64,000 bases of DNA from the human T2T-CHM13v2.0 reference genome, Homo sapiens, in assembly GCF_009914755.1 (NCBI RefSeq), contig NC_060926.1; one strand, written 5' to 3'. The notes beneath the pieces were generated by a model. The model was given only the letters and a program-made list of their open reading frames with translations. It did no database searches and was not told the DNA's origin. Positions within the stretch are counted from its first letter, which is position 1. Each line of letters opens with the position of its first letter. This document shows positions 56,910 to 63,829 of the stretch, one piece after another. The position numbers were made by a program, and so were the translations under genes.

Positions 56910-57590
56910 GTAAGAATTTATATTTTAGGTAACTCATATTTCAAATAGTTTTCACAGAATCAAGTGCAAATCATTATATATGTACCATGATACATACAGC
57001 TTTATAATGAAGAGAGAAGCGTGACAGAAGTAAAAGTCTATAGTAACTTTATAAACAAGATAATATTTGACATTAATGTTTTCTGAACGATATCAATGCA
57101 GGTCTAAAGGAATGCAAGCTGTAATATTCTACTTAAATATATTTATAAGCAATAATTTTATTTTGTGAATTTTGTAAAATTTTGTATTTAAAATTATTTG
57201 ACATTCCTAGTATTTGTACAATATCATGGTTTTTAACCTTGTCCTTATTTATAAATTATTTAGTTCAGTAAAATTTTCTGACTTTGACTTACTTCCATCT
57301 AAAAATCCTCTAGATAAACATGCATAATAAAAAGGTTAACTAAGACTATCAACTTGAGGTTTTTTTTCACTTTATTTTTTTTTCATTATTATACTTTAAG
57401 TTCTAGGGTACATGTGCACAACAGGCAGTTTGTTACATATGTATACATGTGTCATGTTGGTGTGTTGCACCCATTAACTCGTTATTTACATTAGGTATTT
57501 CTCCTAATGCTATCCCTCCCAACTCCCCACACCCCACCACAGGCACCAGTCTGTGATGTTCCCTGCCCTGTGTCCAAGTGTTCTCATTGT

Positions 57591-60500
57591 TCAATTTCCA
57601 CCTATGAGTGAGAACATGCGGTGTTTGGTTTTCTGTCCTTGCGATAGTTTTCTCAGAATGATGGTTCCCAGCTTCATCCATGTCGCTACAAAGGACATGA
57701 ACTCATCCTTTTTTATGGCTGTATAGTATTCCGTGGTGTATATGTGCCACATTTTCTTAATCCAGTCTATCATTGATGGACATTTGGGTTGGTTCCAAAT
57801 CTTTGCTATTGAGAATAGTGCCGCAGTAAACATACGTGTGCATGTGTCTTTATAGCAGCATGATTTATAATCCTTTGGGTATATACCCAGTAGTGGGATC
57901 GCTGGGTCAAATGGTAATTCTAGTTCTAGATCCTTGAGGGATCGCCACACTGTCTTCCACAATGGTTGAACTAGTTTACAGTCCCACCAACAGTGTAAAA
58001 GTGTTCCTATTTCTCCACACCCTCTCCAGCACCTGTTGTTTCCTGACTTTTTAATGATTACCATTCTAACTGGTGTGAGATGGTATCTCATTGTGGTTTT
58101 GATTTGCATTTCTCTGATGGCCAGTGATCATGAGCATTTTTTCATGTGTCTGGCTGCATAAACGTCTTCTTTTGAGAAGTGTCTGTTCATATCCTTCACC
58201 CACTTTTAGATGGAGTTGTTTGATTTTTTCTTGCAAATTTTGTTTCAGTTTCTTGTAGATTCTGAATATTAGCCCTTTGTCAGATGGGTAGATCGCAAAA
58301 ATTTTCTCCCATTTTTTAGGTTGCCTGTTCACTCTGATGGTAGTTTCTTTTGCTGTGCAGAAGCTCTTTAGTTTAATTAGATCCCATTTGTCAATTTTGG
58401 CTTTTGTTGCCATTGTTTTTGATGTTTTAGTCATGAAGTCCTTGCCCATGCCTATGTCCTGAATGGCATTGCCTAGGTATTCTTCTAGGGTTTTTATGGT
58501 TTTAGGTCTAACATGTAAGTCTTTAATCCGTCTTGAATTAATGTTAGTATAAGGTGTAAGGAAGGGATCCAGTTTCAGCTGTCTACATCTGGCTAGCCAG
58601 TTCTCCCAGCACCATTTATTAAATAGGGAATCCTTTCCCCATTTCTTGTTTGTTTCTTTCTTTCTTTCTGATTTTTTGAAGATCAGATGGTTGTAGATGT
58701 GTGGTATTATTTCTGAGGGCTCTGTTCTGTTCCATTGGTCTATATCTCTGTTTTGGTACCAGTACCATGCTTTTTTGGTTACTGTAGCCTTGCAGTATAG
58801 TTTGAAGTCAGGTAGCATGATGCCTCCAGCTTTGTTCTTTCGGCTTAGGATTATCTAGGCATTGTGGGCTCATTTTTGGTTCCATATGAACTTTAAAGTA
58901 GTTTTTTCCAATTCTGTGAAGAAAGTCATTGGTAGCTTGATGGGGATGGCATTGAATCTATAAATTACCTTGGGCAGTATGGCCATTTTTATGATATTGA
59001 TTCTTCCTACCCATTAGCATGGAATGTTCTTCCAGTTGTTTGTGTCCTCTTTTATTTCCTTGAGCAGTGGTTTGCTGTTCTCCTTGAAGAGGTCCTTCAC
59101 ATCCCTTGTAAGTTGGATTCCTAGGTATTTTATTCTCTTTGAAGCAATTGTGAATGGGAGTTCACTCATGATTTGGCTCTCTGTTTGTCTGTTATTGGTG
59201 TATAGGAATGCTTGTAATTTTTGCACATTGATTTTGTATCCTGAGAATTTGCTGAAGTTGCTTATCAGCTTAAGGAGATTTTGGGCTGAGACAATGGGGT
59301 TTTCTAAATATATAATCATGTCACCTGCAAACAGGGACAATTTGACTTCCTCTTTTCCTAATTGAATACCCTTTATTTCTTTCTCCTGCCTGATTGCCCT
59401 GGCCAGAATTTCCAACACTATGTTGAATAGGAGTGGTGAGAGAGGGAATCCCTGTCTTGTGCCAGTTTTCAAAGGGAATGCTTCCAGTTTTTGCCCATTA
59501 AGCATGGTATAGGCTGTGGGTTTGTCATAAATAGCTCTTATTATTTTGAGATACGTCCCATCAATACCTAGTTTGTTGAAAGTTTTTAGCATGAAGGGCT
59601 GTTGAATTTTGTTGCAGGCCTTTTCTACACCTATTGAGATAACCATGTGGTTGTTGTCTTTGGTTCTGTTTATATGCTGGATTAAGTTTATTGATTTGCA
59701 TGGGTTGAACCAGCCTTGCATCCCAGGGATGAAGCCCACTTGATCATGGTGGATAAGCTTTATGTTGTGCTGCTGGGATTTGGTTTGCCAGTATTTTATT
59801 GAGGATTTTTGCATCGATGTTCATCAGGGATATTGGTCTAAAATTCTCTCTTTTTTGTTGTGTCTCTGCCAGGCTTTGGTATCAGGATGATGCTGGCCTC
59901 ATAAAATGAGTTAGGGAGGATTCCCTCTTTTTCTGTTGATTGTAAAAGTTTCACAAGGAATGGTACCACCTCCTCCTTGTACCTCTGGTAGAATTCGGCT
60001 GTGAATCCATCTGGTCCTGAACTCTTTTTGGTTGGTGGGCTATTAATTATTGCCTAAATTTCAGAGCCTGTTATTGGTCTATTCAGGGATTCAACTTCTT
60101 CCTGGTTTAGTCTTGGGAGGATGTATGTGTCCAGGAATTTATCCATTTCTTCTAGATTTTCTAGTTTATTTGCGTAGAGGTGTTTATAGTATTATCTGAT
60201 GGTAGTTTGTATTTCTGTGGGATCGGTGGTGATATCCCCTTTATCATTTTTTATTGTGTCTATTTGATTCTTCTCTCTTTTCTTCTTTATTAGTCTTGCT
60301 AGTGGTCTATCAATTTTGTTGATCTTTTCAAAAAACCAGCTCCTGGATTCATTGATTTTTTGAAGGGTTTTTTGTGTTTCTATTTCCTTCAGTTCTTCTC
60401 TGATCTTACTTATTTCTTGCCTTCTGCTAGCTTTTGAATGTGTTTGCTCTTGCTTTTCTAGTTCTTTTAATTGTGATGGTAGGGTGTCAATTTTAGATCT

Positions 60501-61424
60501 TTCCTGCTTTCTCTTGTGGGCATTTAGTGCTATAATTTTCCCTCTACACACTGCTTTAAGTGTGTCCCAGAGATTCTGGTATGTTGTGTCTTTGTTCTCA
60601 TTGGTTTCAAAGAACATCTTCATTTCTGCCTTCATTTCATTATATACCCAGTAGTCATTCAGGAGCAGGTTGTTCAGTTTCCATGTAGTTGAGTGGTTTT
60701 GAGTGAGTTTCTTAAAACTTAGTTCTAGTTTGATTGCACTGTGGTCTGAGAGACAGTTTGTTATGATTTCTGTTATTTTACATTTGCTGAGGAGTGCTTT
60801 ACTTCCAACTATGTGGTCAATTTTGGAATAAGTGTGATGTGGTGCTGAGAAGAATGTATATTCTGTTGATTTGGGGTGGAGAGTTCCGTAGATGTCTCTT
60901 AGGTCCACTTGGTGCAGAGCTGAGTTCAATTCCTGGGTATCCTTGTTAACTTCCTGTCTCATTGCTCTGTCTAATGTTGACAGTGGGGTGTTAAAGTTTC
61001 CCATTATTATTGTGTGAGAGTCTAAGTCTCTTTGTAGGTCTCTAAAGACTTGTTTTATGAATCTGGGTGCTCCTTTATTGTGTGCATATATATTTAGGAT
61101 AGTTAGCTCTTCTTGTTGAATTGATCCCTTTACCATGATGTAGTGGCCTTGTGTGTTTTGACCTTTGTTGGTTTAAAGTCTGTTTTATCAGAGACCAGGA
61201 TTGCAACCCCTGCCTTTTTTGTTTTCCATTTGTTGTTTGATCTTCCTCCATCCCTTTATTTTGAGTCAATGTTTGTCTCTGCATGTGAGATGGGTCTCCT
61301 GAATACAGCACACTGATGGGTCTTGACTCTTTATCCAATTTGCCAGTCTGTGTCTTTTAGTTGGAACATTTAGCCCATTTACATTTAAGGTTAATATTGT
61401 TATGTGTGAATTTGATCCTGTCAT
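57591..61424 (-). pseudogene. Disrupted L1 ORF2 (EN-RT-C domains)
   Basis: ATG ACA GGA TCA at 61424. Broken into ORFs 60192-61136 (SDHSAIKLE), 59014-59814 (FADD mutated to FAGD), 58066-58818 and 57591-58109. Confidence 0.93.
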
Positions 61425-61487
61425 TATGATGTTAGCTGGTTATTTTGCTCGTTAGTTGATGCAGTTTCTTCCTAGCATCGATGGTCT

Positions 61488-63547: not shown

Positions 63548-63604
63548 AGAGGAAGCAATTATTTTTGAGGTTTAAGTGACTGCTAGTAAAGTGTATCTTA
63601 CAGT

Positions 63605-63745
63605 GTGGGGGATGAGGTGGCAGGAGTGGACTGAGTCGCTGAGGCCCATCCACTGTCGGTGGTTGGCGTAGTCACCGCAGCACAGGAAGTACTGGAGGCC
63701 CGAGTAGTTGGGCTGCTCATAGAGCATCCAGTAGCCACTGTCCAC
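63605..63745 (-). pseudogene. CRYGGP: Gamma-crystallin (gammaD/E/F-type) exon-2 fragment, codons ~38-84; probably the crystallin gamma G pseudogene fragment
   Basis: Translates [47 protein letters not shown] versus recalled [52 protein letters not shown] (40/47). GC-rich island with no exon 1 or exon 3. The symbol is from memory of the isolated human exon-2 fragment. Confidence 0.85.
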
Positions 63746-63829
63746 CTCAACTTGAGGTTTTAACATAAACTTCCTAACTATCAAAGTAAGATATTTCTCA
63801 AGTAAACAAATAAATGAGCAAATGGGTGA

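What the first reader, a model, noticed from the sequence alone, without database searches (positions are those of the whole stretch)
57349..63761. Gamma-crystallin exon fragment and full-length L1 share one target-site duplication: apparent L1 5' transduction of a lens-gene transcript
Seen: the 15-mer TCAACTTGAGGTTTT occurs at 57349-57363, abutting the L1 poly(A), and again at 63747-63761. The second copy lies ~200 bp beyond the L1 5' end and beyond the crystallin fragment. It ends in TTTT/AA (63758-63763), the canonical L1 endonuclease site. On the minus strand the unit reads TSD - crystallin exon-2 piece - 57-bp linker - full-length L1 - poly(A) - TSD, all in one orientation, and the crystallin piece has no poly(A) of its own. 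Known: a TSD brackets a single TPRT event, and 5' transductions arise when an upstream promoter reads into a full-length L1; they are rare. Inference: the orphan crystallin fragment was carried here on a chimeric CRYG-L1 RNA. That requires germline or early-embryo transcription of a nominally lens-specific locus. I do not know whether this origin has been published.
Basis: partly seen in the sequence, partly recalled or inferred. Interest (0 to 1): 0.88.

Follow-up and report, generated by a model that had tools for sequence, protein, structure and literature searches.

The report
Crystallin pseudogene carried by L1 retrotransposon
The orphan human pseudogene CRYGGP is a piece of spliced gamma-E-crystallin RNA that was copied into chromosome 2p together with a full-length L1 retrotransposon in a single insertion event, an example of a recently catalogued kind of L1 chimera.

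Summary
An exact 15-bp repeat (57349-57363 and 63747-63761; 0 of 100 shuffles gave any copy) brackets, on the minus strand: one unmatched G, 141 nt of gamma-crystallin exon 2, a 51-nt linker, 2 unassigned nt, a colinear full-length but dead L1, and an A-rich tail. The target site is TTTT/AA.

New here: the linker is not filler. It matches 47 of 51 nt to a stretch 758 nt inside intron B of CRYGEP. The 758 nt missing from the window run exactly from the exon 2 donor (GTGAGT) to an AG (TTACAG). The fragment was therefore copied from a spliced gamma-E RNA, which excludes DNA-level duplication.

Most likely (about 0.6) a sense L1 once sat in that intron, and exon 2 was spliced to a cryptic acceptor 51 nt upstream of it. 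CRYGEP homology ends 13 nt after a TC/AAAA endonuclease-type site. No L1 is there today. Template switching or another trans route remains possible (about 0.3).

The kind is known: Law and Burns (2026) list 17 such chimeras, not this one. The link between CRYGGP and a LINE was already noted by Wistow (2012). This is a new member of a known kind, of moderate interest.

The parts
57349..57363 (.). Target-site duplication, copy next to the L1 tail (TCAACTTGAGGTTTT)
   Evidence: Exact 15-mer present twice in the window; 0 of 100 shuffles gave any copy.
57364..57384 (-). Degenerate A-rich tail of the L1 (21 nt on the minus strand)
   Evidence: Read directly. It lies between the last L1 bases and the duplication.
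57385..63551 (-). Full-length L1 (about 6.17 kb). The 5' UTR is of the type that starts ...GGTTCCAAGATGG, here in a CTCTCAG variant. Reading frames are broken.
   Evidence: Colinear at 91.6% over 6190 nt with a full-length copy on C13. The 5' end was defined against 29 related copies, 2 of which (L018, L037) share the CTCTCAG start. The longest stop-free stretch on the minus strand is 326 aa. Terminal branch 0.062.
63552..63553 (-). Two nucleotides (TC on the minus strand) assignable to neither CRYGEP nor the L1
   Evidence: CRYGEP has CA here. Related L1 copies have G/A-rich ends here.
63554..63604 (-). 51-nt piece of CRYGEP intron B (a cryptic exon), joined directly to the end of exon 2
   Evidence: 47 of 51 identical to C2:208591486-208591536. 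In CRYGEP it is preceded by TTCTAATTACAG. The CRYGFP counterpart is far more diverged and about 125 nt longer; no match was found within 10 kb downstream of CRYGD exon 2.
63605..63745 (-). 3' 141 nt of gamma-crystallin exon 2 (Greek-key motif 2), ending exactly at the exon 2 donor position
   Evidence: 91% identical to CRYGD, 90% to CRYGEP and CRYGFP, 77-81% to A, B and C. The translation matches gamma-D residues 37-83. All six paralogues continue with GTGAGT after the last base.
63746..63746 (-). Single G (minus strand) between the duplication and the exon piece, not templated by any CRYG gene or by the target
   Evidence: D, E and F have C at this position. The base before the left duplication copy differs.
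63747..63761 (.). Target-site duplication, copy beyond the crystallin piece
63758..63763 (+). L1 endonuclease-type cleavage site TTTT/AA of the reconstructed empty site
   Evidence: Read directly. The consensus itself is established knowledge. PMC13174262 supplement 4 writes the same sites as TT/AAAA on the L1 strand.

Best explanation
One L1 retrotransposition event, roughly 20-40 million years ago, inserted a single cDNA at a TTTT/AA site in 2p16.3. Its template read, 5' to 3':
- the last 141 nt of gamma-E-crystallin exon 2;
- spliced to a 51-nt cryptic exon from intron B of the same gene;
- a full-length L1;
- poly(A).

The chimeric RNA was most probably made in cis. On this model a sense-oriented full-length L1 then sat in gamma-E intron B, directly after ...AAAAAGAATTGCT. 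Transcription ran through exon 2 into the intron. The exon 2 donor was spliced to the nearest usable acceptor (TTACAG), 51 nt upstream of that L1, and the L1's own polyadenylation signal ended the transcript. The L1 proteins translated from this RNA copied it in cis. The cDNA ended, or the RNA began, in mid-exon 2. The source L1 allele was later lost and is absent from this genome.

Shown here: the single bracketing duplication, the endonuclease site, the tail, the exact GT...AG removal, the gamma-E-type origin of the linker, and the full-length L1.

Inferred: the lost source L1, the order of the RNA steps, and the date.
For: Single event:
- Exact 15-bp duplication bracketing the whole unit, with none in 100 shuffles.
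- TTTT/AA at the empty site and an A-rich tail.
- All parts lie in one orientation.

RNA origin:
- The window reads ...CCCCAC|ACTGTAAG...
- In CRYGEP, CCCCAC is followed by GTGAGT, and ACTGTAAG is preceded by TTACAG 758 nt downstream.
- No alternative breakpoint is possible, and 13 of the 20 nt before the AG are pyrimidines.
- CRYGEP and CRYGFP share that intron stretch at 92%, so it is ancestral and not a later insertion.

Source gene:
- The 51-nt piece matches only CRYGEP (47 of 51).

Cis model:
- Homology to CRYGEP stops 13 nt after TC/AAAAAG. That is where the 5' junction of a sense L1 with a 13-bp duplication would lie.
- Only 3.7-3.9% of positions in CRYGEP satisfy YY/AAAA at 7-20 nt. 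With AAAA alone the figure is 11.4%.
- At most 2 nt separate the gamma-E sequence from a near-complete L1 5' end.
- There is a documented precedent with an extant source. In RAP1GDS1, the exon 2 donor is spliced to a cryptic acceptor 15 bp upstream of an intronic L1PA2 (PMC13174262; passages).

Ages agree within wide error:
- L1 terminal branch 0.062, and median non-CpG pairwise distance 0.09 to 29 relatives.
- The exon piece has 12 changes from the D-type state: 8 CpG transitions (8 of 11 CpGs lost) and 4 non-CpG changes.
- The linker has 4 of 51 differences from CRYGEP.
Against: - No L1 lies at or near the predicted site in CRYGEP. The only L1-like sequence found in intron B is an 84-nt 3'-end piece about 435 bp further on, which cannot be a remnant of the source.
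- No sibling insertion carries the same 5' extension (8 matches: the window itself, six exon 2 copies and the CRYGEP intron piece).
- The endonuclease-site argument was made after seeing the data.
- The 2 unassigned nt fit untemplated addition during a template jump equally well.
- In most of the 17 published chimeras no source L1 exists either, and their authors favour trans routes for those cases.
- No primate genomes were available here, so co-arrival of the L1 and the fragment was not tested by presence or absence.
Confidence: 0.6

Rival explanations
1. Trans origin. The L1 RNA and a gamma-E RNA were separate molecules. One route is that ORF2p reached the 5' end of a full-length L1 RNA and jumped onto a spliced gamma-E RNA that ended, or was entered, within the cryptic exon. 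The other is that the two RNAs were joined by trans-splicing or ligation before reverse transcription.
For: - No source L1 lies in CRYGEP.
- The 2 unassigned nt at the junction resemble untemplated additions.
- The L1 lacks only the first few G/A nucleotides seen in its relatives, as expected if the enzyme ran to the end of the L1 RNA.
- Law and Burns favour trans routes for most of their 17 cases, which also involve near-full-length L1s.
Against: - It needs a gamma-E transcript that already used a cryptic exon in intron B without any L1 to define it.
- The non-L1 part does not end at a splice donor: CRYGEP has CATGAG after it, with no GT. The published trans-splicing cases end exactly at donors.
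- It leaves the TC/AAAA site at duplication distance (3.7-3.9% background) as a coincidence.
- A lens gene RNA should be a rare acceptor in germ cells. This last point is inference.
Confidence: 0.3
2. Two independent events. A crystallin fragment was already at 2p16.3 and an L1 later landed beside it. On this reading the 15-bp repeat is chance, or part of the old local duplication of the flanks.
For: The flanks do contain old duplicates (57225-57363 versus 63962-64110, about 70-75% identical) and a near-copy of the 15-mer at 56873.
Against: - The 15-mer pair is exact, while the old duplicates are about 70-75% identical and pair the left flank with 63962-64110, not with 63747.
- Similarity next to the two 15-mers stops at their edges.
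- No duplication flanks the L1 alone. The 9-mer TTGAGGTTT at 63565-63573 lies inside sequence that is continuously CRYGEP-derived.
- The crystallin piece has no tail, so it could not have retrotransposed by itself.
Confidence: 0.04
3. DNA-level duplication or translocation of a piece of the CRYG cluster (the 'translocated remnant' reading).
For: Wistow (2012) calls CRYGGP 'merely a translocated remnant' (PMC3554465; passage).
Against: - 758 nt of intron are removed exactly from GT to AG.
- Homology starts in mid-exon and does not extend beyond the duplication.
Confidence: 0.01

Closest known systems
RAP1GDS1/L1PA2 chimeric insertions (Law and Burns, Cell Genomics 2026, PMC13174262; passages and supplement 4 part 1 read)
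   Same: Exon sequence sits upstream of a near-full-length L1 inside one target-site duplication. An annotated exon donor is spliced to a cryptic acceptor a short distance upstream of an intronic L1 (15 bp there, 51 nt here). All parts are in sense orientation.
   Different: Their source L1 is still present in the RAP1GDS1 intron and gave two offspring; here no source and no sibling is found. Their 5' part starts at exon 1 of a broadly expressed gene. Here it starts in mid-exon 2 of a lens gene that is now a pseudogene.
MAP3K13/L1PA5 and the other mRNA/L1 '5' transduction' chimeras in the same paper (17 in hg38)
   Same: 15-bp duplication, endonuclease motif, tail, full-length L1, and no source L1 in the donor gene. 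The MAP3K13 L1 begins with the same ...GGTTCCAAGATGG 5' type as the relatives of this L1.
   Different: There the exon ends exactly at its donor and abuts the first bases of the L1. Here the donor is joined to intron sequence of the same gene, and the L1 follows 51 nt later. This locus is not in their tables: 'CRYG', the duplication string and the fragment string gave 0 hits in the 4 readable spreadsheets.
U6/L1 and other small-RNA/L1 chimeric retrocopies (template switching or RNA ligation; described in PMC13174262 passages)
   Same: Two RNAs are represented in one insertion with one duplication, in sense orientation.
   Different: In those, the 5' part is usually a full-length small RNA and the L1 is strongly 5'-truncated. 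Here the L1 is full length and the 5' part is an internal piece of a spliced pre-mRNA.
SVA exon trapping of MAST2 exon 1 (recalled from memory; no call made)
   Same: A host exon is spliced onto a retrotransposon RNA and carried along as a 5' extension.
   Different: The element is different (SVA), the acceptor lies inside the element, and the product founded a subfamily. No offspring are seen here.

Membership tests
L1 target-primed insertion | Direct target-site duplication of about 7-20 bp flanking the whole insert | tested here: met
   Exact 15-bp pair at 57349-57363 and 63747-63761; 0 of 100 shuffles contain it.
L1 target-primed insertion | Endonuclease-type site (TTTT/AA) at the empty site, and an A-rich tail at the 3' end | tested here: met
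   TTTT/AA at 63758-63763; 21-nt A-rich tail at 57364-57384.
L1 5' transduction, strict sense (read-through into a source L1) | Non-L1 sequence lies between the 5' duplication copy and a full-length L1, in the same orientation | tested here: met
   195 nt (63552-63746) lie upstream of an L1 that is colinear over 6190 nt with a full-length copy.
L1 5' transduction, strict sense (read-through into a source L1) | The extra sequence is the genomic 5' flank of an identifiable source L1 | tested here: not met
   The donor site in CRYGEP intron B carries no L1 in this genome, and there are no siblings. An endonuclease-type site at duplication distance is compatible with a lost allele.
Cis-spliced gene/L1 chimera (RAP1GDS1 type) | The host exon ends at its annotated splice donor and is joined to an AG-preceded site in the same intron | tested here: met
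   The 758 nt removed start with GTGAGT and end with TTACAG, and the breakpoint is unambiguous.
Cis-spliced gene/L1 chimera (RAP1GDS1 type) | The intronic L1 is present just downstream of the cryptic acceptor in the donor gene | tested here: not met
   Absent in this assembly. Other primates and other human haplotypes could not be searched.
Template-switch chimeric retrocopy (U6/L1 type) | The 5' partner is a complete small or abundant RNA joined to a 5'-truncated L1 | tested here: not met
   The 5' partner is an internal piece of a spliced pre-mRNA, and the L1 is full length.
Processed pseudogene | Spliced mRNA copy with its own poly(A) tail and its own duplication | tested here: not met
   There is no A-run after the crystallin piece, and the only duplication encloses the L1 too.
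Segmental (DNA) duplicate of the CRYG cluster | Homology continues through intron and flank | tested here: not met
   The intron is removed, and homology starts at 63745 with nothing beyond.
Gamma-crystallin gene (functional) | Three exons encoding four Greek-key motifs | tested here: not met
   Only 47 codons of motif 2 are present. 8 of 11 CpGs have decayed and there are several replacements.

The most novel reading that the evidence does not exclude
The insert is the only surviving record of an L1 allele that once sat in intron B of an intact gamma-E-crystallin gene and never fixed. On this reading the allele turned the gene into an exon-trapping, self-mobilising transcript in the germ line. 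The RNA began not at the lens promoter but at a cryptic start inside CpG-rich exon 2, and the lone unmatched G at 63746 is the copied cap. The copy also freezes the Tyr codon (TAC) that both CRYGEP and CRYGFP now carry as a TAG stop. The event would then predate the inactivation of gamma-E in the human lineage.
Probability: 0.25. Interest if true: 0.5.

Novelty: new member of a known kind. Interest (0 to 1): 0.4.

Why it matters
- It gives a concrete, checkable origin for a named human pseudogene that the literature describes only as a fragment 'apparently associated with a LINE' and 'a translocated remnant'.
- It adds a case, absent from the published list of 17, in which the non-L1 part contains an exon-to-cryptic-exon junction from one gene. 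That junction argues for cis-splicing to an intronic L1 rather than trans-splicing, which bears on an open question in that paper.
- It shows that the gamma-E gene region was transcribed in cells contributing to the germ line.
- It preserves the pre-inactivation state of one codon.
- None of this changes how L1 is understood. It is a tidy example, not a new mechanism.

Tried and rejected
- **Brakenhoff et al. 1990.** This is the paper Wistow cites for the LINE association. It is not held, so what it says about the LINE is known only second-hand.
- **Literature searches.**
  - 'CRYGGP': 5 papers, of which only PMC3554465 was read.
  - '5 transduction' + crystallin + LINE-1: 0 papers.
  - CRYGEP + retrotransposon: 0 papers.
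  - 'gamma g' + crystallin + 'second exon' + fragment: 1 irrelevant paper.
  - Two searches failed on term syntax, as did one supplement search.
- **Sibling or source elements.** A search of the whole assembly with the 219-nt 5' end gave 8 matches, none next to an L1 other than the window's own.
- **Homologue of the linker near CRYGD and CRYGFP.** No BLAST hit within 10 kb downstream of exon 2. By eye and by alignment CRYGFP has a much more diverged, longer counterpart.
- **The 84-nt L1 3' piece in CRYGEP intron B as a remnant of the source.** Rejected. About 435 bp of non-L1 sequence separate it from the predicted site, and it sits inside an Alu.
- **The 9-mer TTGAGGTTT shared by the duplication and the cryptic-exon piece, as a sign of microhomology or an alternative duplication.** Rejected. 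It lies inside continuously CRYGEP-derived sequence. The 9-mer occurs 5 times in the window against 1.5 expected, and 3 of 100 shuffles reach 5.
- **Extension of CRYGEP homology past AATTGCT into the window.** None is convincing.
- **L1 subfamily and consensus.** The date rests on a tree branch, on pairwise distances and on recalled calibrations.
- **CpG loss in the L1.** It was not measured, for lack of a reference state.
- **One script error.** One search stopped partway on an indexing error; the remaining part was re-run.
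Full report
**1. The observation**

The 15-mer TCAACTTGAGGTTTT is present exactly twice in the window, at 57349-57363 and 63747-63761. 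None of 100 dinucleotide-preserving shuffles contains it. The repeat finder reports the pair as exact (D9). Allowing up to 2 mismatches adds one site, at 56873-56887, with 1 mismatch.

The left copy abuts a 21-nt A-rich tail (minus strand, 57364-57384) that follows the L1 3' end. The right copy is followed by AA, so the reconstructed empty site reads TTTT/AA.

Between the copies, all on the minus strand, lie:
- one unmatched G (63746);
- 141 nt of gamma-crystallin exon 2 (63745-63605);
- 51 nt of linker (63604-63554);
- 2 unassigned nt (63553-63552);
- an L1 (63551-57385).

The exon piece translates to 47 residues that align to residues 37-83 of human gamma-D crystallin (E about 1e-32).

The L1 is colinear over 6190 nt (91.6%) with a full-length copy on C13. 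Its frames are broken: the longest stop-free stretch on the minus strand is 326 aa.

I set the L1 5' end by lining up 29 related copies. These were taken from 40 scored of 3065 candidates. Most begin ...GGGAGGAGGTTCCAAGATGG. Two (L018, L037) have a CTCTCAG variant that the window shares. The L1 therefore reaches about 63551 and lacks only the first few G/A nucleotides.

**2. What the linker is**

I searched the window's own assembly with the 219-nt 5' end of the unit. This gave 8 matches:
- the window itself;
- exon 2 of six paralogues on C2 (91, 90, 90, 81, 81 and 77%);
- a 54-nt match (91%) at C2:208591486-208591539.

That last match lies in the intron downstream of the paralogue at 208592295-208592435.

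The paralogue at 208604129 encodes 80 of 80 residues of human gamma-D. The one 12 kb away carries an in-frame TAG in exon 2. Its position fits CRYGEP. That name rests on recalled map order and on the table in PMC3554465.

In CRYGEP, exon 2 ends ...CTCATCCCCCAC and is followed by GTGAGT. The linker homologue, ACTGTAAGATCC..., starts 758 nt further on and is preceded by ...CTCTTCTAATTACAG. The window reads ...CTCATCCCCCAC|ACTGTAAGATAC.... So the missing 758 nt begin with GT at the annotated donor and end with AG. Shifting the breakpoint by one base either way does not fit. 13 of the 20 nt before the AG are pyrimidines.

All six paralogues have GTGAGT at this position. CRYGEP and CRYGFP are 92% identical across exon 2 and the whole 758 nt. 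The intron stretch is therefore ancestral, not a later insertion into CRYGEP.

The only reasonable reading is that the fragment was copied from a spliced RNA. This excludes a DNA-level 'translocated remnant'.

**3. Which gene**

The exon piece alone cannot separate D, E and F. The window differs from the state they share at 12 positions, apart from position 57. There D, the window, and A, B and C have C, while E and F have G.

The linker is diagnostic:
- 47 of 51 nt are identical to CRYGEP.
- There is no BLAST match within 10 kb downstream of CRYGD or CRYGFP exon 2.
- CRYGFP has the same acceptor and first 13 nt. It then carries about 125 extra nt and a much more diverged counterpart.

The donor was therefore a gamma-E-type gene.

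The window keeps TAC where CRYGEP and CRYGFP now have the TAG stop. The copy was thus made from a gene, or an allele, that still had the Tyr codon.

**4. Age**

In a maximum-likelihood tree of the first 1.4 kb of the L1 with 29 relatives, the window's terminal branch is 0.062. The median over all 30 terminal branches is 0.057. The median non-CpG pairwise distance to the relatives is 0.09.

The exon piece has 8 CpG-site transitions (8 of 11 CpGs lost) and 4 non-CpG changes in 141 nt. The linker differs from CRYGEP at 4 of 51 positions, counting both lineages. These numbers are mutually compatible, but the crystallin part is too short for a sharp test.

The L1 relatives share their 5' start with the element that Law and Burns call L1PA5 in the MAP3K13 chimera. 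With recalled calibrations for L1PA5-L1PA7 I put the event at roughly 20-40 million years. No tool gave a subfamily name.

**5. Mechanism**

Two routes can join a spliced gamma-E RNA to a full-length L1.

*Cis route.* A sense L1 sat in intron B, and the exon 2 donor was spliced to a cryptic acceptor just upstream of it. The L1 polyadenylation signal ended the RNA, and the L1 proteins made from that RNA copied it. Three things favour this:
- It explains why an otherwise unused acceptor only 51 nt from the junction was used. An acceptor plus the L1's poly(A) signal would define a terminal exon (inference).
- Homology to CRYGEP stops 13 nt after TC/AAAAAG. That is where the 5' end of a sense L1 with a 13-bp duplication would lie. 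Only 3.7-3.9% of positions in the CRYGEP region have YY/AAAA at 7-20 nt (11.4% for AAAA alone). This test was chosen after seeing the sequence.
- A case with the source still present is in print. In RAP1GDS1, the exon 2 donor is spliced to a cryptic acceptor 15 bp upstream of an intronic L1PA2, with two offspring (PMC13174262; passages).

Against it: CRYGEP carries no L1 there now, and no sibling insertion exists.

*Trans route.* This means a template jump from the L1 5' end, trans-splicing, or ligation. The 2 unassigned nt, the near-complete L1 5' end and the missing source all fit. The authors of the published catalogue favour such routes for most of their cases. However, this route needs a gamma-E RNA that already used the cryptic exon. 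Also, the non-L1 part does not end at a donor (CRYGEP continues CATGAG), unlike the published trans-splicing candidates.

I put cis at about 0.6 and trans at about 0.3. I put two independent events at about 0.04 and DNA duplication at about 0.01; the small remainder is unassigned.

That a single insertion event carried a spliced gamma-E RNA piece together with the L1, whichever route joined them, I hold at about 0.9.

**6. The promoter question**

Every RNA model needs transcription across gamma-E exon 2 in cells that contribute to the germ line. None needs the lens promoter.

The piece starts in mid-exon 2. It is preceded by one G that neither the CRYG genes (C at that position) nor the target provides. 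An extra G at the 5' junction is often read as the copied cap. That is established lore and was not tested here. If so, the RNA began inside exon 2. Equally, the cDNA may simply have been truncated there.

**7. Surroundings**

The two flanks are old local duplicates: 57225-57363 against 63962-64110, about 70-75% identical, including an exact 18-mer. This explains look-alikes of the duplication nearby, but not the exact 15-mer pair, whose neighbours are unrelated.

The 9-mer TTGAGGTTT is shared by the duplication and the linker (63565-63573). It is native to CRYGEP and is not unusual: 5 sites in the window against 1.5 expected, with 3 of 100 shuffles reaching 5.

The unit lies antisense within the span of NRXN1-DT, outside its one exon in the window (50432-50517; hub table). 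I saw nothing that suggests a function for it.

**8. What is known**

[quoted passage not shown] He cites Brakenhoff et al. 1990 and adds that it 'appears to be merely a translocated remnant' (PMC3554465; passages). The 1990 paper is not held.

Law and Burns describe 17 mRNA or lncRNA/L1 5' chimeras in hg38. For the preprint I read the outline, passages and section 24. For the Cell Genomics version (PMC13174262) I read passages, the list of supplements and part 1 of 3 of supplement 4.

Neither 'CRYG' nor 'crystallin' occurs in either main text. Neither word, nor the duplication and fragment strings, occurs in the 4 readable spreadsheets. Cells longer than 400 characters are cut, and three PDF supplements could not be read.

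Other searches found nothing on this origin. I therefore find no published statement of the splice junction, of gamma-E as the donor, or of the single-event structure. This holds only within the searched library.

**9. Verdict**

It is a new member of a known kind, not a new mechanism. Interest is moderate: it settles the origin of a named pseudogene and gives one more, unusually informative, case for the cis-splicing route of L1 5' chimera formation.

Noticed in passing
window 57225-57363 and 63962-64000 (continuing to about 64110 in L001:1920-2075): The two flanks of the insertion are old local duplicates, about 70-75% identical, including an exact 18-mer at 57239-57256 = 63978-63995. In the empty site they would lie about 340 bp apart.
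   Followed up: partly
window 56873-56887: A 14-of-15 near-copy of the target-site duplication lies 476 bp to the left, inside what looks like an old interspersed repeat. No wider similarity to the target site was seen.
   Followed up: partly
window 63565-63573: The 9-mer TTGAGGTTT of the duplication also occurs inside the CRYGEP-derived linker and is native to CRYGEP. There are 5 sites in the window against 1.5 expected, so this is probably chance.
   Followed up: yes
L004, minus strand, about 260-175 (C2: about 208590970-208591055), in CRYGEP intron B: An 84-nt sense piece of an L1 3' end (89% identical to the window's L1) replaces the middle of an antisense Alu. It has no tail. It looks like a patch or conversion rather than a normal insertion.
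   Followed up: no
L039 and L041 (CRYGEP and CRYGFP, exon 2 to intron B): CRYGEP and CRYGFP are 92% identical from exon 2 through 758 nt of intron B. The identity collapses 13 nt into the cryptic exon, which may be the edge of a gene-conversion tract. Both carry the same TAG stop in exon 2, where CRYGD, A, B, C and the window have TAC.
   Followed up: partly
L012, L013, L015, L016 (about 40 kb from the starts of C22, C4, C21, C15): Four nearly identical copies of the same L1 5' end with identical flanks (terminal branches 0-0.002). Presumably these are recent duplications shared among chromosome ends.
   Followed up: no
window 63880-63953, + strand: The right flank contains a short, old L1 ORF2-like fragment in the opposite orientation to the young L1. 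A 16-mer there also matches inside the L1 (D8).
   Followed up: no
window 63601-63604: RefSeq's CRYGGP span includes 4 nt that derive from the intronic cryptic exon, not from exon 2.
   Followed up: yes
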